Shown here: piece after piece, positions 16,533 to 60,218 of the stretch
Layout: every line of letters starts with the position of its first letter
Position numbering within the stretch: position 1 is the stretch's first letter
Assembly: GCA_016713785.1 (NCBI GenBank)
Contig: JADJOM010000002.1
Coordinates: forward strand, 132,404-196,403
Source of the DNA: Gemmatimonadota bacterium
GTDB taxonomy: Bacteria > Gemmatimonadota > Gemmatimonadetes > Gemmatimonadales > GWC2-71-9
Direction: 5' to 3'
DNA length: 64,000 nt
Position numbers and translations under genes: made by a program
Notes under the pieces: model-generated
What the model saw: only the letters and a program-made list of their open reading frames with translations
Told to the model about the DNA's origin: nothing
Databases searched by the model: none

Positions 16533-16578
16533 GGCCCCACCCGTGCCGGCCGGCATCCCCAATCAGCTATCATTCGCC

Positions 16579-17676
16579 ATGCATCCCGATACCCGCATCC
16601 TCCACGCCGGGTACCCGTCCAACCGGACGCCCGGCCCGTACCTCCCCGGCCCCGCCTTCGCGGGTACCTACGTGGCGCCGGGCGATCCCGCCCAGCACCC
16701 GCTCACCTACGGCCGGTTCCACAACCCCACCTGGCTCGCGTGGGAAGCCGCACTGGCGGAGCTCGATGGCGGCGAGGCGATCGCCTTTGCCTCCGGGATG
16801 GCGGCGGTCTCCGCGGTGTTCGGCGTGGTGCTCCAGCCCGGTGACACGCTGGTGCTCCCCACCGACTGCTACTACACCACCCGCATCCTCGCCCGGGACT
16901 GGCTGCCGAAGCTCGGCATCACCGTGCGCACCGCCTCTACCCGCGCCGACGCCCTCGGCGCGCACCTGGCGGGCGCGCGGCTCCTCTGGCTCGAGACGCC
17001 CTCCAACCCCGAGCTCGAGGTCTGCGACATCGCGGCGCTGGCCACGGCCGCGCGGCGCGAGGGGTGCCTCGTGGCGGTGGACAACACCACCGCGACCGCC
17101 TTCCTGCAGGACCCGCTCGCGCTGGGCGCCGACATCACCATGGCCTCCGACACCAAGGCGCTCACCGGCCACGCCGACGTCACGCTGGGCCACCTGAGCA
17201 CCCGCGACGCCGAACTCGCGACGAGGCTCCGCACCTGGCGCACCCAGCACGGCGCCACCCCGGGACCGATGGAGGTGTGGCTGGCGCATCGCTCGCTGGC
17301 CACCCTGCCGCTCCGTCAGGCGCGCCAGTGCGCCACCGCGCTCGCGCTCGCGGAGCGGCTCGCGACGCGGCGGGACGTGGCGCGGGTCTGCTACCCCGGG
17401 CTGGCCTCGCACCCGGGGCACGAAGTGGCCAAGCGGCAGATGCGCGCCTACGGCTCGGTGCTGAGCTTCGACCTGGTCACCCAGGAGCGGGCCGAGCGGT
17501 TCCTCGGGAGCCTGACGCTGGTGCGGGAAGCCACCAGCTTCGGGAGCGTCCACTCGAGCGCCGAGCGCCGCGCCCGCTGGGGCGGCGACGCGGTGAGCGA
17601 GGGGTTCATCCGGTTCTCCTGCGGCACCGAGTACCCGGACGACCTGATCGCCGACGTCGAGCAGGCGCTGGGGTAG
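16579..17676 (+). CDS. Cys/Met-metabolism PLP-dependent enzyme (cystathionine gamma-synthase/lyase family)
   Basis: MHPDTRILHAG start. PLP-lysine motif SDTKALTGHAD. Family-typical C-terminus IRFSCGTE. Confidence 0.9.
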   Translation: MHPDTRILHAGYPSNRTPGPYLPGPAFAGTYVAPGDPAQHPLTYGRFHNPTWLAWEAALAELDGGEAIAFASGMAAVSAVFGVVLQPGDTLVLPTDCYYTTRILARDWLPKLGITVRTASTRADALGAHLAGARLLWLETPSNPELEVCDIAALATAARREGCLVAVDNTTATAFLQDPLALGADITMASDTKALTGHADVTLGHLSTRDAELATRLRTWRTQHGATPGPMEVWLAHRSLATLPLRQARQCATALALAERLATRRDVARVCYPGLASHPGHEVAKRQMRAYGSVLSFDLVTQERAERFLGSLTLVREATSFGSVHSSAERRARWGGDAVSEGFIRFSCGTEYPDDLIADVEQALG

Positions 17677-17785
17677 GGCGGTAGGGCGGTAGGGCGGTAG
17701 GGCGGTAGGGCGGTAGGGCGGTAGGGCGGTAGGGCGGTAGGGCGGTAGGGCGGTAGGGCGGTAGGGCGGTAGGGCGGTAGGGCGG
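17669..17785 (+). repeat. 8-bp microsatellite (GGCGGTAG)n, 13 perfect copies plus degenerate ends
   Basis: Read directly. The TAG at 17674-17676 that stops the PLP enzyme belongs to the first (degenerate) unit. Confidence 0.95.
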
Positions 17786-17980
17786 AACGAGCGACCTCCC
17801 CCGGCTCCCAGAAGTTCCCGCTTCCCGCCGCTCGCGGCTGAAGCCGCGGCTCGGCATCCATCGCTGAAGCGAGGCATGACGGGCCCCTGCCAGCGCCGGA
17901 ACCGCGAAGATCAGGCGCTTCAGCGCCTGCCGCCGAGCCGCGAGTTTACTCGCGAGCCCGCGGCACCGCACTCCCCTCGC

Positions 17981-18036
17981 CTTCCCTTTTCCCCCTTCCC
18001 GCTTCCCGCTTCCCGCTTCCCGCTTCCCGCTTCCCG
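17981..18036 (-). repeat. 7-bp microsatellite, (GCGGGAA)6 on the minus strand, plus degenerate copies
   Basis: Plus strand shows cttcccg x6 at 17995-18036. The array starts 5 nt after the stop of the minus-strand gene ending at 18042, in that gene's sense orientation. Confidence 0.9.
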
Positions 18037-18041
18037 CAACG

Positions 18042-18515
18042 CTAGTCACAGTCGAAGCACCGCTCCACCCGCGCCATGAAGCACCCCGCCTCCGCATTCC
18101 GCAGGTGCACGAACGCCGCGGTCGTCTCGCGGAACACCCCCTCGATCACCGCCTCGGCCGCACTCTCACCCACCCACTCCTGCGCCACGAGGCGCCCGCC
18201 GTCGGCGTATCCCTCGACCACCAGGGGCAGGCCGCGGAAGTCGGGCGGGAAGTCGAGCGCGTCGTAGCGCGCGCAGCCATCGGCGTGGATGAAGACCGGC
18301 CCGGGCGCGGGCAGGCTGCCCGGCGCGAACGGCTGGTAGGTGAACAGCAGCCGGTCTTCCTGCCCCACGTGGAAGGTGCGCAGGCAGTGACGGCAGGGGC
18401 CGTAGCCCCGCGCCGGCTCACGATGCGCGGGGTGGCCGTACTGGGGGGATCGGAGGGTGGCGCGGACGTCGTCCGCGATCTGGCTGGCGAGTCCTGCGTA
18501 CCGGAAGGCCGGCAT
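18042..18515 (-). CDS. DUF1203-like protein
   Basis: MPAFRYAGL...GYGPCRHCL...PGPVFIH matches my memory of DUF1203. ATG 18515 has GGGAG 5-6 nt upstream. Alternative ATG at 18548. Confidence 0.7.
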   Translation of the reverse strand: MPAFRYAGLASQIADDVRATLRSPQYGHPAHREPARGYGPCRHCLRTFHVGQEDRLLFTYQPFAPGSLPAPGPVFIHADGCARYDALDFPPDFRGLPLVVEGYADGGRLVAQEWVGESAAEAVIEGVFRETTAAFVHLRNAEAGCFMARVERCFDCD

Positions 18516-18604
18516 GTTTGCTCCCATCGAGGTGATGGGAGCGAACATAGGACCGTGACGTCGGGACGACTATCCGCCGCGTGCGGTCAAACTGGACCGC
18601 CGGG

Positions 18605-19868: not shown

Positions 19869-20480
19869 ATGCCCCAGCTCCTGCACCTCGACTGCAGCGC
19901 CCGCGAGGCGGGCTCGCTCACCCGCGGACTCTCCCGGCAGTTCGTGGAGCGCTGGGTGGCGGCACACCCCGGGACCACCGTGCGCTACCGCGACCTGGCC
20001 GCGCACCCGGTGCCCCAGGTGGACACGGCGTGGATCGCCGCCGCCTTCGATCGTACCAGCCCGCCCGGCACTCGGCACGCCGCGCTCGCGGTCTCGGATG
20101 AGCTGGTGGACGAGCTGCTGGCGTCGGAGGTGATCGTGGTGGGGAGCCCGGTCTACAACTTCACCGTGCCGGCGGTGCTCAAGGCGTGGATCGACCAGGT
20201 CATCCGGGTGGGGCGCACCTTCCTCCCGGGAGCCTTTCCCTCGCGCGGGCTGGCGGGCGGCCGCAAGGTGGTGGTGCTCTCCTCGAGCATGAACGACTAC
20301 CTCCCACCCTCGCCCCACGTGGCGCTCGATCACTTCGAGCCCTACCTGCGCACCGCCTTCGGGTTCATGGGCGTGGACGACCTGACCGTCATCCGGTGCT
20401 CGGGTGGCACCGAGGCGGACATCGCCGCCTCACTGGCGCGGGCGGAGGAACGGATGCAGCAGGTGATCGGCGGGCGGTAG
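19869..20480 (+). CDS. azoR: FMN-dependent NADH-azoreductase
   Basis: 203 aa. MPQLLHLDCSARE...SPVYNFTVPAVLKAWIDQV is typical of AzoR-type flavodoxin-like reductases. The stop TAG lies in the repeat array. Confidence 0.8.
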   Translation: MPQLLHLDCSAREAGSLTRGLSRQFVERWVAAHPGTTVRYRDLAAHPVPQVDTAWIAAAFDRTSPPGTRHAALAVSDELVDELLASEVIVVGSPVYNFTVPAVLKAWIDQVIRVGRTFLPGAFPSRGLAGGRKVVVLSSSMNDYLPPSPHVALDHFEPYLRTAFGFMGVDDLTVIRCSGGTEADIAASLARAEERMQQVIGGR

Positions 20481-20592
20481 GGCGGTAGGGCGGTAGGGCG
20501 GTAGGGCGGTAGGGCGGTAGGGCGGTAGGGCGGTAAGGCGGTAAGGCGGTAGGGCGGTAGGGCGGTAAGGCGGTAGGGCGGTAAGGCGGTAG
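20473..20592 (+). repeat. 8-bp microsatellite (GGCGGTAG/GGCGGTAA)n, 15 copies
   Basis: Read directly. The azoR stop TAG (20478-20480) is in the first unit. Five units carry TAA instead of TAG. Confidence 0.95.
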
Positions 20593-20640
20593 CGAGAGGC
20601 GAGCCTGGATGGGGTGCGGGCAGCCCGCCTCACGTTGAGT

Positions 20641-20673
20641 TTACCGCCCTACCGCCCTACCGCCTTACCGCTA
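20641..20673 (-). repeat. inverted short array of the same 8-mer (about 4 copies)
   Basis: Plus strand ttaccgcc ctaccgcc ctaccgcc ttaccgc. On the minus strand it follows the TAG stop (20673-20671) of the membrane-protein gene. Confidence 0.85.
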
Positions 20674-21039
20674 CGGTTTGTAGATCGCCGTCAGCGCCGC
20701 GGCGAGGCCCAGCACCGGATAGAGCAGGAACAGCGGCTTGGCCAGCGCGGGCTTCCGGTAGGGCAGCAGGACCGCGAAGGAGAGCACGATCCAGATCCCG
20801 AGCTTGATGAACACCCAGCTCGGGAAGGGCCACTGCACCTTGAGGCGGGCCAGCAGCCCGAAGCCGCCCAGCAGGACGAGGAACGCGGCGGTGCCGTGCA
20901 GGGCGGAGAGGAGCTTCCGGTGGGGATTGCTCTCCCGGGTGCCCCCCGCCGCGACGACCATCGCGACACCACCAAAGGACACAAACAGCAGCATGATCGC
21001 GGCCAGGTGAATGGCGCGGTAGAGTTCGGCGGGTATCAT
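20671..21039 (-). CDS. small integral membrane protein (4 predicted helices)
   Basis: 122 aa with four hydrophobic stretches. Good GC3 bias. Confidence 0.75.
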   Translation of the reverse strand: MIPAELYRAIHLAAIMLLFVSFGGVAMVVAAGGTRESNPHRKLLSALHGTAAFLVLLGGFGLLARLKVQWPFPSWVFIKLGIWIVLSFAVLLPYRKPALAKPLFLLYPVLGLAAALTAIYKP

Positions 21040-22102: not shown

Positions 22103-23732
22103 TCAGCGCAGCACCGTGGCGAGGATCGCCCGCGCCTCCGCGACGATCCGCCCCAGGTGCCCGGCGTCCACCAGGCTCTCCGCGTACAGCTTGTAGACGT
22201 TCTCGGTCCCGCTGGGCCGCGCCGCGAACCAGCCGTTGGCCGTGGCCACCTTGAGCCCGCCGATGGGCGCGTCGTTCCCCGGCGCGCGGGTGAGCCGCGC
22301 GGTGATCGGGTCGCCGGCGAGCGTCGCGGCGGTGACCGCCTCCGCGGTGAGTCGCTTGAACCCCGCCTTCTCCGCCGCGGTGCACGGGGTGTCGATCCGG
22401 GTGTAGACCGGGGCGCCGTAGTGCCCGGTGATCTCGCGATAGTGCTCCCCCGGATCGCGGCCGGTGACCGCGGTGATCTCCGCCGCCAGCAGGCCGAGCA
22501 GGATGCCGTCCTTGTCGGTGGTCCAGACCGTGCCGTCGCGGCGCAGGAAGCTGGCGCCCGCGCTCTCCTCCCCGCCGAAGCAGACCGTGCCGTCGAACAG
22601 CCCCGGCGTGAACCACTTGAAGCCGACGGGCACCTCCAGCAGCCGCCGCCCCATCCCTTCCACCACCCGGTCGATGATCATGCTCGACACCAGCGTCTTC
22701 CCCACCGCCGCGCTCCGCGGCCAGCCCGGGCGGTTGGCCAGCAGGTAGCGGATGGCCACCGCCAGGAAGTGGTTGGGGTTGAGCAGGCCGGCGGAGCGCG
22801 TCACGATGCCGTGCCGGTCGGCGTCGGGGTCATTGCCGCAGGCCACGTCGAAGCGGTCCTTGAGCCCGACCAGCCCCGCCATCGCGGCGGTGCTGGAGCA
22901 GTCCATGCGGATCTTGCCGTCGTGGTCCACGGTCATGAAGCCGAATCGGGGGTCGACCACCCGGTTGACGATGGTCAGGTCGAGGCCGTACCGCTCGCCG
23001 ATCAGCTCCCCACGCCGCGAGCGCGCTGCCGCCCATCGGGTCCACGCCGATCCGGAGCCTCGCCGCGCGGATGGCGTCGAGGTCGATCACGGCGGCGAGG
23101 TCCGCGACGTACGCCGCCACCAGGTCGGTGGGCCGCGCGTCGGGCCGCCCGCCCCGCAGCACGTCCGGCTCCGCCTTGGCGCCGGCGAGGATGGCGTTGG
23201 CGCGGTTCTGCACCCACCCCGTCACGTCGGTGTCGGCCGGGCCGCCGTTGGGCGGGTTGTACTTGAAGCCGCCATCCTCCGGGGGATTGTGCGAGGGGGT
23301 GATGACGATCCCGTCCGCCTCCGGTTCGCCGGGCCGGCGCCGCGCGTTGTGGCCCAGGATGGCGTGCGAGATCACCGGCGTCGGGGCGTAGCCATCGGCC
23401 GGCTGCACCACCACGTCCACCCCGTGCGCCAGCAGCACCTCGAGCGCGGTGCGTTCCGCCGCGCGCGACAGCGCGTGGGTGTCCTTCCCGAGGAACAGCG
23501 GGCCGGTGGTCCCCTGGGCCGCGCGATACTCGGCGATGGCTTGGCTGATGGCCCGGATGTGCGCCGCGGTGAAGGTGCCGTTGCCCGGCGTCCCGCGGTG
23601 CCCGCTGGTGCCGAAGCTCACGCGTTGCGCCGGGTCGGCGAGGTCGGGGAGGCGCTCCTGATAGTCGCGCTCCAGCTGCGCGACGTCGATCAGCAGCGCC
23701 TCGGGGGCGGGCTGGCCTGCGAGTGGGTGCAC
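22103..23732 (-). pseudogene. pgm: phosphoglucomutase (alpha-D-glucose phosphate-specific), interrupted by a +1 frameshift
   Basis: The N-terminal frame carries FGTSGHRGT. The C-terminal frame carries [10 protein letters not shown] and GGEESAG. The frames join at gcg tgg G gag ctg, a G4 where G3 is needed (plus-strand C-run 23008-23011). Start GTG 23732 (MHPLAGQPA) has GGAGAGGG upstream. Length is 1630 nt, which is 3n+1. Confidence 0.9.
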
Positions 23733-25070
23733 TACAGCGCCCACCCTCTCCGGGGAACCGGCCGCAGCCACTCCTCCGCCAGCTTCACGTTGGTCACGTT
23801 CCCGCTCTCCGGATCCACCGCCAGCGGCTGGCCGGCGCGCACCGCCAGGCAGCCGAAGAGCACCATCTCGGTGAGCGGACCCGCGTGGCCCGCGAACGTG
23901 GAGAGGTTGGGCGCGCCGCCCTTCATGGCGCGGATCCACTCCGCGTACACCCCGGGCGACCGCTCGTACTTCACCGCCGGCGGGTTGGCCTTGAGCTCGG
24001 CGTCCTTCGCCGGGTCGAGCAGCCGCGGGTTGTCGCCGTACATGCCGGCCAGGATCGCGCCGCTCGTGCCCACCCACATCTGGCCGCCGATCTCCTCGGG
24101 GGCCAGCTCAGGGTGTCGGGGAGTCCGGCGGGGCGGGGGGGCCAGAGCCCGCCGTCGCGCCAGTACACCGTCACCGGGCCGCGATCGCCGCGGGCGGGGA
24201 AGCTGTAGGTCACCCGCGAGGACTTGGGCGCGGTCTCCTCGTACAGCTTGGTGGTCTCCGGCTCCACGCGGGTCGGGTAGCGCAGGTCGAGGGCCCAGAA
24301 GGCGGCGTCCATCCCGTGGCAGGCCATGTCGCCCAGGGCGCCGGTGCCGAAGTCCCACCAGCCGCGCCAGTTGAAGGGCGCGTACGCCGGGCTGTAGGGC
24401 CGCTCCGGCGCGGGGCCGAGCCAGAGGTTCCAGTCCATCGTCGGGGGGACGTTGTGCGCCTGCGTGGGGCGGTCGATGCCCTGGGGCCAGATGGGGCGGT
24501 TGGTCCAGTAGTGGATCTCGCGCACCGGGCCGATCACGCCGGCCTCCACCCACTCGCGCAGCTGGCGGGTGCCCTCGTTGGTGTGGCCCTGGTTCCCCAT
24601 CTGGGTGCACTGCTTCGGGCGGCGCGCCGCCTCCGCCATCACCGCGCGCACCTCGCCCATGGTGCGGGCCAGCGGCTTCTGGCAGTAGACGTGCTTCCCG
24701 GCGCGCAGCGCCAGCAGCGTGGCGGCGGCGTGGCTGTGGTCGGGGGTGGAGACCGTCACCGCGTCGATGCTGCGGGCTTCCTTGTCGAGCATCTCGCGGT
24801 AGTCGCGGTAGCGGCGCGCCTTGGGGTAGCTCTTGAAGGCGTCGGCGGCGGCGTTCCAGTCCACGTCGCAGAGCGCCACCAGGTTCTCCCCTCCATGCCG
24901 CGCACGTCGTTGCGGCCCATGACGCCCACGCCGATGCAGGCCACGTTGAGCGTGTCGCTCGGCGCGCGGTAGCCGCGGCCCAGCACGTGGCGCGGGACGA
25001 TATGGAACAGGCCGGCGGCGCCGGCGGCGCTGTGGACGAACTCGCGGCGTGAGGGCTTCGCGCGACCCAT
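23732..25070 (-). pseudogene. TAT-signal Gfo/Idh/MocA family oxidoreductase, two -1 frameshifts
   Basis: MGRAKPSRREFVHSAAGAAGLF (TAT signal), Rossmann VACIGVGVMGRN and CQKPLA. Three frames must be spliced, at plus-strand C4 24888-24891 and G7 24135-24141. The stop TAG overlaps the pgm GTG by 1 nt. Confidence 0.85.
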
Positions 25071-25167
25071 GCAGGGGCTCCAGGGACGGGGCGGGGAGTG
25101 ACGGCGGACGTGGCAGGGGAAGATGCAGCGGAAACGGGCCCGGGGCGAGGGCCTGGGCCCCCCACCC

Positions 25168-26485
25168 GGGAGTGTCAGTTTCTCTGTGTATGAGCCTGGT
25201 TCACTGCCATGCCGGGACCCGGTCCCCGAAGAGGAGCCGGATGTGCCGCAGCGCCTCCACCCAGTGCTGCGGCGTGCCGAGCTTCGCCTGCGCGTTCCGC
25301 AGCGCCAGGTACAGCAGTTTGCTCGCCGCCTCCGCGGAGGGGAAGTGCCCCCGCACCTTGAGGCTCTTCCGCAGCGTCCGGTGCAGGCTCTCGATCGCGT
25401 TGGTCGAGTAGAGCAGCCGCCGGACCGGCACCGGGTACGCCAGCGCCGGGGCCAGCCGCTCCCAGTGCCGCTGCCACAGCGCCGTGATCTCCGAATGTGC
25501 CTGGCCCAAGGGACTCGCGGCCCAGGCGGCGAGGGCCTGCTGCGCGGCCGCCTCGCCTGGCGCCTGGTAGATCCCCGCAGGGCGCTCGCCACCGCCTTCC
25601 GCTCCCGCCAGTTCACCTGCGCCAGGCTCTGCCGCACCAGGTGCACCACGCACTGGTGCACCACCGTCTGGGGAAAGACCGCGTGGATGGCGTCCGGAAA
25701 GCCGGGCAGCCCATCCACCAGCGCGATCAGGATGTCCTGCACCCCGCGCCCCTGCAGGTCGCTCAGCACCCGCTGCCAGAAGGCCGCCCCCTCCGCCGCC
25801 GCGAGCCAGAAACCCAGCACCTCCTTCTCGCCGCTCGGCCGGATGCCCAGCGCCAGGTAGATCACCTGCTGCTGCACCAGCCCCTCGGTCCGGATCTTCA
25901 CGCGGAGCCCGTCGAGCACGACGGCGATGTACACCGGCTCCAGCGGCCGCTGCTGCCACGCCGCCGCCTCGGCCAGCACCGCGTCGGTCACCGCCGTGAT
26001 CACCGCCGGCGACACCTCCACCTGGTAGCACTCCTCCAGGTGCGCCTGCAGCTCCCGCACCGTCAGGCCCCGGGCGTAGAGCGACAGGACCTTCTGGTCG
26101 AAGCCCGGCAGCCGGCGCACCCCTTGGGCACGAAGGCCGGGGTGAAGCTCCCCTCCCGGTCCCGCGGGATCGCCAGCGGCAGCGCCCCCTCGTCGGTCAG
26201 CACCGTCTTGGGCGTGGTCCCGTTCCGGGCATTGCCGTCGGGCCCGCGGCCGGCCCCCGGGGCGTACCCCAGGTGCTCGGTCAGCTCCGCCTGCAGCACC
26301 CGCTCGACCATCCGCTGTTTCAGCCGCCGGAACACCGCCTCGAGCTGCTCCGGCGTCTGCACCTGGGCCAGCAGGGTCTCCAGGGCCGCCGCCTCCTGCG
26401 GGTCCGCGGCCGGGCGCTTCTTCCGTGCCATATCCCCTCCTCCCTCCCTAGGATATGGCTCATACACAAACTTTCAAACACTCCC
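25168..26485 (-). mobile_element. IS256-family insertion sequence
   Basis: Imperfect terminal inverted repeats: gggagtgtcagtttctctgtgtatgagcc on the left and ggctcatacacaaactttcaaacactccc on the right. Flanking direct repeat is CCCCACCC (8 bp), or CCACCC depending on where the ends are drawn. Confidence 0.85.
25201..26431 (-). pseudogene. IS256-family transposase, two -1 frameshifts
   Basis: MARKKRP...ELTEHLGY...RDREGSFTPAFVPKG | RRLPGFDQKVLSLYARG...VDGLPGFPDAI...ASALRG | IYQAP...YSTNAIESLH. Breaks lie at plus-strand C4 26120-26123 and C4 25573-25576. Confidence 0.85.
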
Positions 26486-26959
26486 CCACCCGGCCTGCCG
26501 GCGGCCTCCCGCCGCCGTTTCCCGGCACGCGGACGCGTATCACGGACCGCGGGCTCCGCTCCACTGCATGACGCAGGCGTTCAACGCACCCCCGTCTCCT
26601 TCCACGGGCCCTCCGGCGACATTTCCTGTCCGCTTTTATCGCACAACCCGGCACCTGGTACCCATCACGCACTTCCGCGGAAATTTTTTTGCATTGCGCG
26701 TGGCATACATTCACCGCACGGTTCCCTTCACGGGCCTCCCCGTGACCTTCACCGCACCGCGAAGGAGCAAAACACCGACGCTCGTGACATTCACTGGCCG
26801 GAGAATTCGTCCAACTCATCGCCTGTCCGCATTCACGCCCTGCAGCAGACGTTTTATGCACGACACCTTCCATTTATTCATTGCGAAAGCCCTCCCACGC
26901 CCTGCAGCCGCCATCCCTCGTACTTCTCACTGCCCACCTCCCCCTTCTGTTCACTCTCC

Positions 26960-27137
26960 TCCCTCTTCTCTCTTCCCTCTTCCCGCTTCCCTCGTCCCTC
27001 TTCCTTCTTCCCTCTTCCCTCTTCCCTCTTCCCTCTTCCCTCTTCCCTCTTCCCTCTTCCCTCTTCCCTCTTCCCTCTTCCCTCTTCCCTCTTCCCTCTT
27101 CCCTCTTCCCTCTTCCCTCTTCCCTCTTCCCTCTTCC
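26960..27137 (+). repeat. 7-bp polypyrimidine microsatellite (CTCTTCC)n, about 18 perfect plus about 7 degenerate copies
   Basis: Read directly. The plus strand is only C/T for about 180 nt. The array ends about 130 bp upstream of the peroxidase start codon. Confidence 0.95.
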
Positions 27138-27265
27138 CGCCCCCCACCCGGCCGTGCGCCCAAGGTTCCTTCACGATCTTCTCCCCGTCTCCTTCACCGC
27201 CCGCCGGTACGTTCGGTGGACAATCCCGACAATCCGTCCGGCGCCATCCCATGAAGGAGATCGCC

Positions 27266-28300
27266 ATGTCATTCCGTTCCCTGACCCTGGGCCTGTTCGC
27301 CGGCGTGGTGCTGGGCGGCGCGGGCCTGGCCGCGCAGGCCACCCCCGCCGCTCCCGCCCGAACCGCCCGGCCGGCCGAGCCGATCCAGCCCATCGTGGCG
27401 CCGCGGATCACCCACCCGGCCAAGGTGGAGCTGGGCAAGAAGCTCTTCTTCGACCCGCGGCTGTCGCGCTCCGGCTTCATCTCCTGCAACAGCTGCCACA
27501 ACCTCAGCATGGGCGGCAGCGACAACCTCGAGACCTCGATCGGCGACCACTGGCAGCGCGGCCCGATCAACGCCCCGACGGTGCTCAACTCGAGCATGAA
27601 CCTGGCGCAGTTCTGGGATGGCCGGGCGGCGAGCCTGCAGGAGCAGGCCGGCGGCCCGATCGCCAACCCGGGCGAGATGGCGCTGTCGCACGGGCTGGCG
27701 CTCGACGTGCTGCGCTCGATCCCGCAGTACGTGGTGGAGTTCAACGGGGTGTTCGGCAACCCGGACATCACCATCGCCCAGGTCACCGAGGCGATCGCGG
27801 CGTTCGAGGCCACCCTGGTGACGCCCGACAGCCGCTTCGACCAGTACCTGCGCGGCAACCGCCGGGCCATCAACCCGCAGGAGCGGGCGGGGTACGAGCT
27901 GTTCAAGTCGAGCGGCTGCGTGGCCTGCCACCATGGGCCGGCGGTGGGCGGGGCGTCGTTCCAGAAGATGGGGCTGTTCGGCACCTACGAGACCCAGAGC
28001 ACCGCCATCGGCCGTGCGGCGGTGACCGGCAAGGACGCCGACCGGATGACCTTCAAGGTGCCGACGCTCCGCAACGTGGAACTCACCTATCCGTACTTCC
28101 ATGACGGCGCCGCGCACACCATGGAAGACGCGGTGATGGTGATGGGGCGGCTGCAGGTGGGGCGGGAGTTCACGCCGCTCGAGGTGGCGCAGATCGTGGC
28201 GTTCCTGCGGACGCTGACGGGCAAGCAGCCGGCGATCACCATCCCGATCCTGCCGCCGTCGTCGAGCATCACCCCGCGGCCGACGCCGTTCGGGAACTAG
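27266..28300 (+). CDS. di-haem cytochrome c peroxidase (CcpA/MauG family)
   Basis: Two CxxCH motifs (CNSCH, CVACH). Signal peptide present. AAGGAGA lies 5 nt before ATG 27266. Alternative ATG at 27251. Confidence 0.9.
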   Translation: MSFRSLTLGLFAGVVLGGAGLAAQATPAAPARTARPAEPIQPIVAPRITHPAKVELGKKLFFDPRLSRSGFISCNSCHNLSMGGSDNLETSIGDHWQRGPINAPTVLNSSMNLAQFWDGRAASLQEQAGGPIANPGEMALSHGLALDVLRSIPQYVVEFNGVFGNPDITIAQVTEAIAAFEATLVTPDSRFDQYLRGNRRAINPQERAGYELFKSSGCVACHHGPAVGGASFQKMGLFGTYETQSTAIGRAAVTGKDADRMTFKVPTLRNVELTYPYFHDGAAHTMEDAVMVMGRLQVGREFTPLEVAQIVAFLRTLTGKQPAITIPILPPSSSITPRPTPFGN

Positions 28301-28392
28301 GCGGCTCGGCGGTCGGAGCACGGCTGATGGCGTGGCGGCCCGGGCCCACGTGCCCCCGCCGCGGCCTGCCAGTCATCAGCTTTGGCATGCCG

Positions 28393-28516
28393 CTCTGGGG
28401 GCACGTGGTCCCAGCCCTGGCACTGACGGCGGCGCTGCACTTGCCGCCGACCCTCTCTGGGGGCACGCGGTCCCGGGCCCGGCAGGGACGGCGGCGCTGC
28501 ATTGACCGCCGACCCT
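28393..28516 (+). repeat. two tandem copies of a 62-bp unit (about 85% identical)
   Basis: ctctgggggcacg(t/c)ggtccc...gacggcggcgctgca...ccgccgaccct starts at both 28393 and 28455. A partial inverted copy lies at 28342-28356. Confidence 0.8.
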
Positions 28517-28616
28517 CGGGTAGCCCCGTCGCCGCGTGCCAAAGCCGACGACTGGCACGCGCCAGAGGGGGTACCCGGGGGGAGGCCCCGGTCCCGCAGC
28601 GGCACGGCGGGACAGC

Positions 28617-60153: not shown

Positions 60154-60185
60154 ACGGGAAGCGGGAGATCACCCCCGCTTCCCGT
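60154..60185 (+). terminator. intrinsic-terminator-like hairpin
   Basis: acgggaagcggg-(8 nt)-cccgcttcccgt followed by ttcccttttcccgttt. Confidence 0.6.
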
Positions 60186-60218
60186 TTCCCTTTTCCCGTT
60201 TCCCGGTAGCTTCCGGGC

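What the first reader, a model, noticed from the sequence alone, without database searches (positions are those of the whole stretch)
17669..17785. (GGCGGTAG)13 array begins at the stop codon of the PLP enzyme gene, on its sense strand
The TAG that ends the gene belongs to the first unit of a 13-copy perfect 8-bp array. Because 8 is not a multiple of 3, the array places TAG in all three frames within 24 nt on this strand. The complementary strand has no stops and reads PTALPPYR repeats. The transcript would carry GGG tracts every 8 nt with 5-nt loops (GGGCGGUAGGG...), which meets the standard G3-N1-7 quadruplex rule. The same arrangement recurs at 20473, 20673 and, in short form, at 28298. Possible roles are a 3' UTR structure or terminator, a translational safety stop, or simply an expansion-prone sequence.
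Basis: partly seen in the sequence, partly recalled or inferred. Interest (0 to 1): 0.6.

Follow-up and report, generated by a model that had tools for sequence, protein, structure and literature searches.

The report
G-rich repeat arrays abutting stop codons
The 13-copy GGCGGTAG run after the PLP-enzyme gene is real and is one of about 190 fast-changing, G-rich 7- or 8-base repeat arrays that sit right against gene ends in this Gemmatimonadales genome, a repeat class already described in Xanthomonas and Nostoc whose purpose is still unknown.

Summary
Thirteen perfect GGCGGTAG units (17677-17780), plus partial units, start at the TAG stop of a Pfam-supported PLP gene.

The pattern is genome-wide. 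The 4.4-Mb genome holds 191 intergenic arrays of 7- or 8-nt units (GGGAAGC, GGGCGGTA, GGCGGCTC types). The 5' end of the G-rich strand abuts the neighbouring ORF in 153 of 191 (p=1.5e-17). [quoted passage not shown] The rule also holds for heptamers that contain no stop codon, for arrays without a partner, and in a genome of another family, where most arrays have exactly four units.

The arrays are hypervariable. Two strains with 100% identical flanks differ by four units. They are not conserved at orthologous genes (0 of 20).

This matches the quadruplex-forming heptamer repeats of Xanthomonas and Nostoc (Rehm 2015), so I file it as a new member of a known kind.

The focal array is not a hairpin arm, a canonical terminator or Shine-Dalgarno-like. 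TAG in all three frames looks like a by-product.

My best guess (about 40%) is a G-quadruplex element at the cistron end. A functionless, self-renewing repeat is nearly as likely. RNA and read data were unavailable.

The parts
16579..17676 (+). Cys/Met-metabolism PLP-dependent enzyme gene. Its TAG stop is at 17674-17676.
   Evidence: My own codon-position gene caller. Pfam PF01053, E=2e-83, with the match reaching profile 380/381 at residue 364/365.
17669..17785 (+). Focal array: imperfect unit TGGGGTAG (holds the stop), 13 perfect GGCGGTAG units (17677-17780), then partial GGCGG.
   Evidence: The predicted RNA fold uses G-quadruplexes (-35.2 versus -26.1 kcal/mol without G4). The antisense RNA is unstructured (-4.4).
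17822..17980 (.). Hairpin-rich dispersed repeat of about 135-155 nt that fills the spacer between the two arrays. It is REP-like and not part of the array family.
   Evidence: blastn against the genome: at least 14 copies at 85-93% identity, clustered at C2 333.8-336.2 kb and 374-378 kb, plus partial copies next to other arrays.
17981..18037 (-). (CGGGAAG)x8 heptamer array on the sense strand of the facing gene. It starts 4 nt after that gene's TAG.
   Evidence: TRF; junction listing.
18042..18548 (-). DUF1203 gene, convergent with the PLP gene.
   Evidence: Pfam PF06718, E=2e-24, profile 3-116/116 ending at residue 163/168.
19869..20480 (+). Flavodoxin-like-fold (FMN reductase type) gene. Its last codons and TAG lie inside the next array.
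   Evidence: Pfam PF02525, E=1e-43, profile 196/198 at residue 198/203.
20472..20592 (+). (GGGCGGTA)x15 array with TAG and TAA unit variants.
20642..20671 (-). (GGCGGTAR)x3.8 array directly after the TAG (20673-20671) of minus-strand gene 20671-21039. It is complementary to the array at 20472-20592.
   Evidence: The pair folds into a stem of about 35 bp, z=-5.8. Rfam gives only sub-threshold miRNA-hairpin hits.
28298..28320 (+). Short form: TAG followed by two degenerate GGCGGCTC-type units after the di-haem peroxidase gene (27251-28300).
26956..27138 (-). (GGAAGAG)x26, the largest array in the window. The 5' end of its G strand faces the peroxidase start 112 nt away.
   Evidence: TRF; predicted G4 fold of -41.8 kcal/mol against 0 without G4.
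60174..60205 (-). Example of the start-adjacent class: (CCCGTTT)x4.6 on the sense strand, 13 nt upstream of an ATG start.
   Evidence: (C2 192577-192608).

Best explanation
**What it is**
The array is an expanded member of a genome-wide, order-wide (Gemmatimonadales) population of G-rich 7-8-nt simple-sequence repeats. They are the same kind of element as the quadruplex-forming GGGNATC repeats of Xanthomonas and Nostoc.

**Shown here**
- The arrays lie between genes.
- They change copy number and unit sequence between near-identical strains.
- They are not tied to particular genes.
- In a second family the copy number clusters at four, the minimum for one quadruplex.

**Inferred**
- The array is transcribed as the first ~115 nt of the PLP mRNA's 3' UTR.
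- There its G3-N5 tracts fold into G-quadruplexes. The same can happen in the displaced non-template DNA strand.
- This would form a structured, exonuclease- and Rho-refractory block directly at the cistron end. It could pause or end transcription and protect the 3' end.
- Any transcript entering the gene from outside carries the C-rich, unstructured complement.
- The first G-tracts lie inside the footprint of a ribosome sitting on the stop codon, so folding would be coupled to translation.

**By-product**
TAG in all three frames is a by-product of this unit. It lets octamer arrays overlap the last codons of a gene without harm.
For: **Position and orientation in this genome**
- 121 flanks are of the type 'gene 3' end with the G strand as sense'; 98 of them lie within 20 nt (median 1). 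For the antisense orientation it is 15 of 105.
- 101 arrays start within 30 nt after a stop. Stop-free heptamers start 0-12 nt after it.
- The 5' gap is smaller than the 3' gap in 153 of 191 arrays (p=1.5e-17), and in 52 of 58 arrays in convergent spacers.
- The rule holds for arrays that are alone in their spacer: 96 of 119, and 74 of 97 when no complementary partner is present.

**Independent replicate**
- In G029 (another family, 64% GC) the 5' side is within 12 nt of an ORF for 36 of 78 arrays, against 4 of 78 for the 3' side.

**Four-unit preference**
- G029: 15 of 18 arrays in an unbiased 400-kb block have exactly four units.
- This genome: heptamers show a local peak at four units (counts for 2, 3, 4 and 5 units are 56, 34, 46 and 16).

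**Predicted structure**
- G4 is in the minimum-energy fold of the sense RNA. The antisense RNA is unstructured.

**Context**
- Canonical hairpin-plus-T terminators are rare (87 of 1650 post-stop regions), and none lies near these arrays.
- Pfam domains of three array-adjacent genes end 1-5 residues before the stop.

**Literature**
- Rehm 2015 reports the same positional rule, a four-unit peak, G4 formation by CD, transcription of the repeats, and excess transcript starts and stops at G4-capable repeats.
Against: - There are no RNA data.
- Loci turn over fast. The PLP-stop array exists only in relatives with at least 96% protein identity, plus a contig break in one at 80%. It is absent at 78-79%.
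- None of 20 array-bearing genes of G029 has an array at the stop of its best homolog in this genome.
- The units are patchy among species, and the arrays cluster regionally; none lie in C3 0.7-1.3 Mb.
- An RNA-level 3' UTR role does not explain the 24 arrays that sit as C-rich sequence just upstream of start codons.
- In co-directional spacers the orientation itself is only mildly biased, 63 to 47.
- GGCGGCTC-type units have only GG tracts.
- The focal array has 13-14 units, far more than one G4 needs.
- Rehm et al. found no regulatory role.
Confidence: 0.4

Rival explanations
1. The array has no cellular function. It is a self-renewing, slippage-prone repeat, and a polar mutational process plus purifying selection set its position.
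- G-rich structures stall DNA synthesis on the G-rich template.
- The resulting deletions run toward the 5' side of the G strand and erode the spacer until an essential ORF boundary stops them.
- Octamers with TAG in every frame can even replace the last codons.
- Stop-free heptamers must halt after the native stop.
For: - One rule covers both stop-adjacent and start-adjacent arrays, whatever the ORF orientation (Rehm 2015, section read).
- The arrays are hypervariable: 10 versus 14 units with 825 nt of 100% identical flank.
- There is no locus conservation, and the arrays are patchy in phylogeny and in the genome.
- They co-occur with other junk-like repeats.
- Octamer arrays overlap gene ends by up to 32 nt, whereas heptamers sit at about 0 or later, with two 1-nt overlaps.
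- Array-bearing PLP genes end ...ALG*, while array-less homologs carry 4-8 more residues.
- Polar deletions 5' of G-tracts are known from C. elegans dog-1/FANCJ mutants. This is from memory and was not checked here.
Against: - The strong preference for exactly four units in G029 looks like selection for one G4, not a slippage equilibrium.
- The same few units occur at some 100 loci, and GGGAAGC occurs in two families without any shared loci. That needs a copying mechanism or a common constraint.
- Polar G4-dependent deletion has not been shown in bacteria.
- G-strand orientation does not follow GC skew (p=0.10).
Confidence: 0.33
2. The arrays are antisense insulators. The complement of each array is C-rich, G-poor and unstructured, which makes it an ideal Rho loading site. 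Any transcript running into the gene from its 3' side would be terminated by Rho.
For: - The antisense RNA of the focal array is predicted to be unstructured (-4.4 kcal/mol for 116 nt) and is 62% C and 12% G.
- Rho is encoded in the genome (PF07497, 122.7 bits, at C3:1844348).
- Arrays are three-fold enriched at convergent gene ends (5.8% against 1.9%, p=3e-8).
- Canonical terminators are rare.
- Rho is known to suppress antisense transcription in E. coli (from memory).
Against: - Half of the arrays lie between co-directional genes.
- C-rich arrays directly upstream of start codons would then terminate sense transcripts.
- This idea does not explain the four-unit preference or why the array must touch the stop codon.
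- There are no RNA data.
Confidence: 0.1
3. The arrays are binding-site arrays for a sequence-specific protein or RNA that is conserved in Gemmatimonadales and recognises motifs such as GGGAAGC(G).
For: - The same heptamer occurs in two families, in 21 of 106 sampled genera, and only within this order.
- In G029 degenerate GGGAAGCG motifs recur at 10-12-nt spacing in the 3' flank of the arrays: 1.8 per 60 nt against 0.06 background.
Against: - Many unrelated units coexist and replace each other at a single locus: GGCGGTAG, GGCGGTTG, GGCGGCTC, and 9-mers.
- The only shared feature is G-tracts with short loops.
- No candidate factor was identified.
Confidence: 0.07
4. The array is one arm of a long hairpin formed with an inverted array. 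The hairpin acts as a (bidirectional) factor-independent terminator.
For: - 31 of 101 stop-adjacent arrays have a complementary partner within 200 nt.
- Pairs within one spacer are G-first 30 times and C-first 3 times.
- The pair 20472-20592 / 20642-20671 folds with z=-5.8.
- Relatives carry repeat-armed hairpins at the PLP stop, one of them with a T-tract.
Against: - The focal array's neighbour is a non-complementary heptamer array, and the whole spacer folds no better than shuffles (z=0.13).
- 70 of 101 arrays lack a partner, yet unpartnered singletons keep the positional rule.
- No T-tract follows.
Confidence: 0.05
5. The array is a translational safety stop. TAG in all three frames catches read-through or frameshifted ribosomes.
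For: - TAG occurs in each frame within 24 nt.
- 55 of 61 stop-adjacent octamer arrays supply or follow a TAG or TAA stop.
- TAG is also enriched before heptamer arrays (22 of 40 against 32% genome-wide, p=0.002).
Against: - The most abundant families (GGGAAGC, GGGAAAC, GGGAAGA, GGCGGCTC) contain no stop codon and follow the same rule.
- Three units would be enough, but the array has 13.
- The arrays are lost and gained freely.
Confidence: 0.03

Closest known systems
Quadruplex-forming G-rich heptamer repeats GGGAATC (Xanthomonas) and GGGGA(C/T)T (Nostoc PCC 7120); Rehm et al. 2015, PLoS One, PMC4692102
   Same: - Tandem G-rich units of 6-9 nt with one G3 tract per unit.
- Hundreds of copies per genome, mostly intergenic.
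[quoted passage not shown]
- They are rare between divergent genes.
- Copy number peaks at four units.
- Inverted pairs occur.
- Length and sequence vary between close relatives.
- Function is unknown.
   Different: - A new phylum (Gemmatimonadota).
- Several coexisting unit families, including octamers whose unit carries TAG or TAA, so the array itself supplies the stop codon and can overlap the gene end.
- Much longer arrays (up to 26 units).
- G4 formation and transcription were not measured here.
TAACTGA heptamer direct repeats of Beggiatoaceae, cyanobacteria and Bacteroidetes (MacGregor 2015, PMC4679880)
   Same: - Abundant intergenic heptamer arrays with a patchy phylogenetic spread.
- Many lie within a few nucleotides upstream of start codons, like the C-rich start-adjacent class seen here.
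   Different: - AT-rich unit containing two stop codons, with no G4 potential.
- Mainly 5' of genes.
- Two to six copies.
REP/BIME extragenic palindromes of enterobacteria and pseudomonads (from memory)
   Same: - Non-coding repeats that accumulate just after stop codons and between convergent genes.
- They are gained and lost between strains.
- They can stabilise upstream mRNA.
- When within about 15 nt of a stop codon they interfere with translation termination (Liang and Deutscher 2015, from memory).
   Different: - REPs are single imperfect palindromes mobilised by RAYT transposases, not tandem arrays.
- The focal array has no palindromic partner.
- RAYT was not looked for.
G-quadruplex-dependent transcription termination at mitochondrial CSBII, and G-rich pause elements downstream of eukaryotic poly(A) sites (from memory)
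   Same: G-rich non-template strand directly downstream of a transcription unit, so nascent-RNA G4 or R-loop formation could pause or release the polymerase.
   Different: - Single conserved elements with demonstrated function in eukaryotic or organellar systems.
- Nothing comparable has been shown for bacterial RNA polymerase or for these arrays.

Membership tests
G-rich quadruplex-capable 6-9-nt simple-sequence repeats (Rehm et al. 2015 class) | Head-to-tail tandem repeats of a 6-9-nt unit with a G-tract of at least 3 in each unit | tested here: met
   GGGCGGTA period 8, 14.2 copies, 100% matches. Heptamers GGGAAGC, GGGAAAC and GGGAAGA occur elsewhere.
G-rich quadruplex-capable 6-9-nt simple-sequence repeats (Rehm et al. 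2015 class) | Many copies per genome, over-represented in non-coding DNA and under-represented between divergent genes | tested here: met
   159 arrays of period 7 or 8 with at least 4 copies stand out from all other periods. There are 191 intergenic arrays, against 46 'inside' calls that are mostly GGCGGCTC-type or over-extended starts. 58 lie in 423 convergent spacers and 23 in 422 divergent spacers.
G-rich quadruplex-capable 6-9-nt simple-sequence repeats (Rehm et al. 2015 class) | [quoted passage not shown] | tested here: met
   Replicated in G029.
G-rich quadruplex-capable 6-9-nt simple-sequence repeats (Rehm et al. 2015 class) | Preference for four units (one intramolecular G4) | tested here: inconclusive
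   Strong in G029 (15 of 18 in an unbiased block). In this genome there is only a local peak for heptamers. The focal array has 13-14 units.
G-rich quadruplex-capable 6-9-nt simple-sequence repeats (Rehm et al. 2015 class) | Copy number and unit sequence vary between close relatives at the same locus | tested here: met
   At the PLP stop: GGCGGTAG x13 here, GGCGGTTG/GGCGATTG x10 in L001, GGCGGCTC x9 in L002. L176 versus L001: 14 versus 10 units with identical flanks.
G-rich quadruplex-capable 6-9-nt simple-sequence repeats (Rehm et al. 2015 class) | Oligonucleotides form G-quadruplexes in vitro (K+-dependent CD signature) | not testable with these tools
   Prediction only: ViennaRNA with G4 energies gives -35.2 against -26.1 kcal/mol.
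G-rich quadruplex-capable 6-9-nt simple-sequence repeats (Rehm et al. 2015 class) | Repeats are transcribed | not testable with these tools
Intrinsic (Rho-independent) terminator | GC-rich hairpin followed by a U-tract | tested here: not met
   No terminator-like site lies near 17669-18041 or 20472-20671. The focal spacer folds no better than shuffles.
REP/BIME elements | Imperfect palindrome able to form a stem-loop on its own | tested here: not met
   The focal array is a pure direct repeat and its neighbour array is not complementary. The associated RAYT gene was not searched for.
Known RNA families (Rfam 15) | Match at or above a family's gathering score | tested here: not met
   Only sub-threshold miRNA-precursor hits on the inverted arrays at 20560-20673.

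The most novel reading that the evidence does not exclude
Gemmatimonadales, and by extension the other phyla with such repeats, may use a single G-quadruplex placed 0-12 nt past the stop codon as a factor-independent cistron-end element.
- The four-tract unit would be under selection.
- Its first tracts lie inside the footprint of the terminating ribosome, so folding would report whether the message is being translated.
- A dedicated polar process, either G4-dependent deletion or unit addition at the ORF-proximal end, would keep the arrays pressed against ORF boundaries and spread the same unit to new loci.
- Long arrays such as this 13-mer would be runaway expansions of that module.
Probability: 0.15. 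Interest if true: 0.75.

Novelty: new member of a known kind. Interest (0 to 1): 0.4.

Why it matters
- **A strict rule without a mechanism.** The rule is strict enough to demand an explanation, and none has been shown. G-rich 7-8-nt arrays touch ORF boundaries with a fixed polarity, in at least two bacterial families here and in Xanthomonas and Nostoc in the literature.
- **RNA quadruplexes in bacteria.** If the quadruplex reading is right, a bacterium tolerates or uses more than 100 transcribed RNA G4 motifs. This would run against the view that bacteria avoid them (Guo and Bartel 2016, from memory). It would also point to a non-canonical 3'-end signal in high-GC phyla, where hairpin-plus-U terminators are rare (about 5% of post-stop regions here).
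- **Strain typing and assembly.** The arrays are hypervariable markers that differ between strains with identical flanks, so they are useful for strain typing. They also cause contig breaks in short-read MAGs; the 80% relative's contig ends at the array.
- **Annotation.** ORFs running through the stop-free C-rich strand are spurious. Octamer arrays can supply the true stop codon.

Tried and rejected
1. **Hairpin arm.** The focal array plus spacer plus heptamer array folds no better than shuffles (z=0.13).
2. **Known RNA family.** Rfam gives nothing above threshold.
3. **Canonical terminator or promoter near the arrays.** None found.
4. **Coding on the minus strand (PTALPPYR).** The ORF 16570-17877(-) is antisense to a Pfam-supported gene and fails the codon-position model.
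5. **Shine-Dalgarno-like ribosome trap.** Array units pair with the 16S tail GAUCACCUCCUUUCU worse than composition-matched shuffles (-8.4 and -8.9 against means of -12.8 and -12.1 kcal/mol).
6. **Mobile cassette flanked by arrays.** Five genes have both a 5' and a 3' array, against 1.0 expected. They are ordinary genes in array-dense regions.
7. **Replication-strand effect.** G strand against local GC skew gives OR 1.65, p=0.10.
8. **Polarity inside arrays.** In-register unit purity is about equal in the first and last thirds.
9. **More structure downstream of arrays.** The excess over shuffles is no greater than at other gene ends.
10. **Locus conservation across families.** 0 of 20.
12. **Metagenome scans.** The first scan with the exact gene end found nothing. 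The second found one contig of a sister strain.
13. **Guessing contig numbers from accession order.** This failed.
Full report
**1. The observation**

The sequence at 17669-17785 is as described.
- Tandem Repeats Finder reports one array at 17672-17785: period 8, 14.2 copies, 100% matches.
- In detail there is an imperfect unit TGGGGTAG (17669-17676), then 13 perfect GGCGGTAG units (17677-17780), then GGCGG.
- The TAG at 17674-17676 ends a gene (16579-17676, +). Pfam calls it a Cys/Met-metabolism PLP enzyme (E=2e-83).
- The Pfam match runs to profile position 380 of 381 at residue 364 of 365, so the array does not truncate the protein.
- The two-unit pattern occurs 27 times in the window against 0 in 100 shuffles.
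- TAG falls in each of the three + frames. The - strand is stop-free and reads PTALPPYR.

- 20472-20592 has 15 units and overlaps the TAG of a flavodoxin-fold gene.
- 20642-20671 lies on the minus strand, right after the TAG of gene 20671-21039.
- The site at 28298 is only two degenerate units of another subfamily.

**2. The organism**

- The window is C2:132404-196403 of a 4.41-Mb, three-contig genome with 72% G+C.
- The closest public relatives of the PLP gene are Gemmatimonadales MAGs at 97% and 96% protein identity.

**3. Genome-wide survey**

Method. No gene caller is installed, so I called genes with a codon-position composition model: 3612 genes, 86% coding. In the window its stop positions agree with Pfam domain ends for three array-adjacent genes. 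I ran TRF on the whole genome.

Abundance. Periods 7 and 8 stand out, with 82 and 77 arrays of at least 4 copies. Every other period has 12 or fewer. The unit families are:

| Unit | Arrays |
|---|---|
| GGGAAGC | 46 |
| AGGGCGGT | 42 |
| CGGCGGCT | 26 |
| GGGAAAC | 22 |
| AAGGCGGT | 14 |
| GGGAAGA | 12 |

Position relative to gene ends.
- Flanks of the type 'gene 3' end, G-rich strand is the sense strand' are within 5 nt of the stop in 71 of 121 cases and within 20 nt in 98 (median 1 nt).
- For the antisense orientation the figures are 5 and 15 of 105.
- For octamers this is partly automatic, because a TAG-bearing unit ends any frame that enters it.
- Heptamers contain no stop codon, yet they start about 0-12 nt after the native stop. 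That part is not circular.

**4. The rule is broader than 'after stop codons'**

Taken per array, the gap on the 5' side of the G-rich strand is smaller than the gap on the 3' side in 153 of 191 intergenic arrays (p=1.5e-17; medians 10 and 79 nt).
- In convergent spacers, where both neighbours are stop codons, the figure is 52 of 58.
- It holds for arrays that are alone in their spacer (96 of 119).
- It holds for those with no complementary sequence nearby (74 of 97).
- Where two arrays share a spacer, they are G-first 30 times and C-first 3 times.

The neighbour on the 5' side can also be a start codon. Twenty-four arrays lie 0-20 nt upstream of clean ATG starts as C-rich sense sequence with no visible Shine-Dalgarno. 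An example in the window is 60174-60205.

In co-directional spacers orientation as such is only mildly biased (63 sense, 47 antisense). The strong effect is adjacency with a fixed polarity.

G-strand orientation does not follow local GC skew (p=0.10).

**5. Independent replicate**

Distribution.
- The heptamer pattern (GGGAARM)x4 occurs in 29 of 251 sampled genomes of the phylum.
- All 29 are in two families of this order, across 21 genera. There are none in the other classes.
- The exact units are patchy even within the genus.

G029, a genome of the other family (64% G+C). I fetched 570 kb.
- Of 78 arrays, 58 have exactly four units.
- In an unbiased 400-kb block, 15 of 18 have exactly four units.
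- The 5' side of the G strand is within 12 nt of a stop in 27 cases and of a start in 9. The 3' side is that close to a neighbouring ORF in only 4 (Fisher p=2e-9).

In this genome heptamer runs show a local peak at four units: counts for 2, 3, 4 and 5 units are 56, 34, 46 and 16.

**6. Turnover**

At the PLP stop, relatives carry the following:

| Relative (protein identity) | What follows the PLP stop |
|---|---|
| 97% | (GGCGGTTG/GGCGATTG/GGGGATTG)x10, then (CTTCCCT/G)x9 |
| 96% | (GGCGGCTC)x9, a hairpin, then (TAACCGCC)x7 |
| 80% | Contig ends at the stop |
| 79% | Hairpin with 9-mer-repeat arms and a T-tract |
| 78% | No array |
| More distant | No array |

- A metagenome contig of a sister strain (L176) is 100% identical to L001 over 825 nt upstream. 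It nevertheless has 14 instead of 10 octamer units, in a different order, and 8 instead of 9 heptamer units.
- None of 20 array-bearing genes of G029 has an array at the stop of its best homolog here (base rate 2.8%).
- Arrays cluster regionally and are absent from C3 0.7-1.3 Mb.
- They share spacers with other repeats. The 196-nt spacer after the focal array is mostly a 135-155-nt hairpin-rich element with at least 14 copies.

**7. Structure**

- With G-quadruplex energies switched on, ViennaRNA places G4s in the minimum-energy fold of the sense RNA (-35.2 against -26.1 kcal/mol).
- The antisense RNA is essentially unstructured (-4.4 kcal/mol for 116 nt).
- The focal array is not a hairpin arm. 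The whole spacer, including the facing heptamer array, folds no better than shuffles (z=0.13).
- The pair 20472-20592 / 20642-20671 does form a stem of about 35 bp (z=-5.8). Overall, 31 of 101 stop-adjacent arrays have such a partner.
- No canonical terminator lies nearby. Genome-wide, only 87 of 1650 post-stop regions have a hairpin plus T-tract (39 on the reverse complement, 8 in shuffles).
- Rfam finds nothing.
- The units pair with the anti-Shine-Dalgarno tail worse than shuffled sequences of the same composition.
- Rho is present.

**8. What is known**

Rehm et al. 2015 (PMC4692102) describe GGGAATC repeats in Xanthomonas and GGGGA(C/T)T repeats in Nostoc with the same properties:
- they are intergenic;
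- they lie 0-50 bp from the stop on the coding strand, or just upstream of ORFs on the non-coding strand;
- they are 'almost exclusively' nearer the 5' neighbouring ORF, whatever its orientation;
- they are rare between divergent genes;
- copy number peaks at four units;
- G4 formation was shown by CD;
- most repeats are transcribed;
- they vary between Xcc and Xac;
- their function is unknown.

MacGregor 2015 (PMC4679880) describes TAACTGA heptamer arrays just upstream of start codons.

I found no paper on such repeats in Gemmatimonadota.

Earlier notes of this scan report the same class in several phyla. I read them after reaching the same assignment, and they are not independent evidence.

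**9. Interpretation**

High confidence: the focal array is an expanded, hypervariable member of this repeat class. TAG in all frames is a by-product that lets octamers overlap gene ends. Overlaps reach 32 nt, whereas heptamers begin at or just after the native stop.

Uncertain: how it works.
- I put about 40% on a G-quadruplex element at the cistron end. The supports are the four-unit preference, the tight spacing within the footprint of a terminating ribosome (footprint size from established knowledge), the structural asymmetry of the two strands, and the scarcity of canonical terminators.
- I put about 33% on a functionless, self-renewing repeat positioned by a polar mutational process and filtered by selection. 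This explains the stop-adjacent and start-adjacent classes with one rule, and it fits the turnover data. It does not explain the four-unit preference.
- Rho-based antisense insulation, a binding-site array, a hairpin terminator and a safety stop share the remainder.

Noticed in passing
window 17822-17980: The spacer between the two arrays is a hairpin-rich dispersed repeat of about 135-155 nt. It has at least 14 copies at 85-93% identity, many in tandem clusters at C2 333.8-336.2 kb and 374-378 kb. A 41-nt core (GCCGCTCGCGGCTGAAGCCGCGGCTCGGCATCCATCGCTGA) lies next to arrays on all three contigs. It is REP-like, and there is no Rfam match.
   Followed up: partly
window 60174-60205 (and 23 other loci genome-wide): C-rich arrays such as (CCCGTTT)n, (GCTTCCC)n and (CTACCGCC)n sit 0-20 nt upstream of clean ATG starts on the sense strand, with no Shine-Dalgarno motif. 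Only 33% of well-scored genes have an SD-like core at -20..-4, against 15% in a control window.
   Followed up: partly
window 26956-27138: (CTCTTCC)x26 is the largest array in the window. It lies 112 nt upstream of the di-haem cytochrome c peroxidase gene. Its G-rich strand is predicted to fold only as G4s (-41.8 against 0 kcal/mol).
   Followed up: partly
genome C3:1845945-1845976: A (GGGAAGC)-type array starts 11 nt after a TGA that is probably the stop of the rho gene (Rho_RNA_bind hit at C3:1844348 in a 451-aa frame). A second, weaker Rho_RNA_bind hit lies at C3:2623815.
   Followed up: no
genome C3 0.7-1.3 Mb: No 7/8-mer arrays at all lie in this 0.6-Mb stretch, which has strongly strand-biased genes. 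In contrast there are 27 arrays in C2 300-400 kb and 22 in C3 2.2-2.3 Mb. In G029 the homologs of several genes from this array-free region do carry arrays.
   Followed up: partly
L004 4096-4210; L125 (G016) 2587-2690: More distant relatives have hairpins at the PLP stop whose two arms are tandem 9-mers (GAGGTCGTC-type and GAAGGGCAC-type). The G016 hairpin is followed by a T-tract.
   Followed up: no
window 28393-28517: A 62-nt unit is repeated twice (87% matches), about 90 nt after the peroxidase stop.
   Followed up: no
window 23000-27000: My composition-based gene caller found only short, low-scoring genes here. The coding status of this stretch is unclear.
   Followed up: no
genome-wide: Canonical hairpin-plus-T-tract terminators are rare: 87 of 1650 post-stop regions of at least 40 nt. 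That is about as many as there are stop-adjacent arrays (101).
   Followed up: partly
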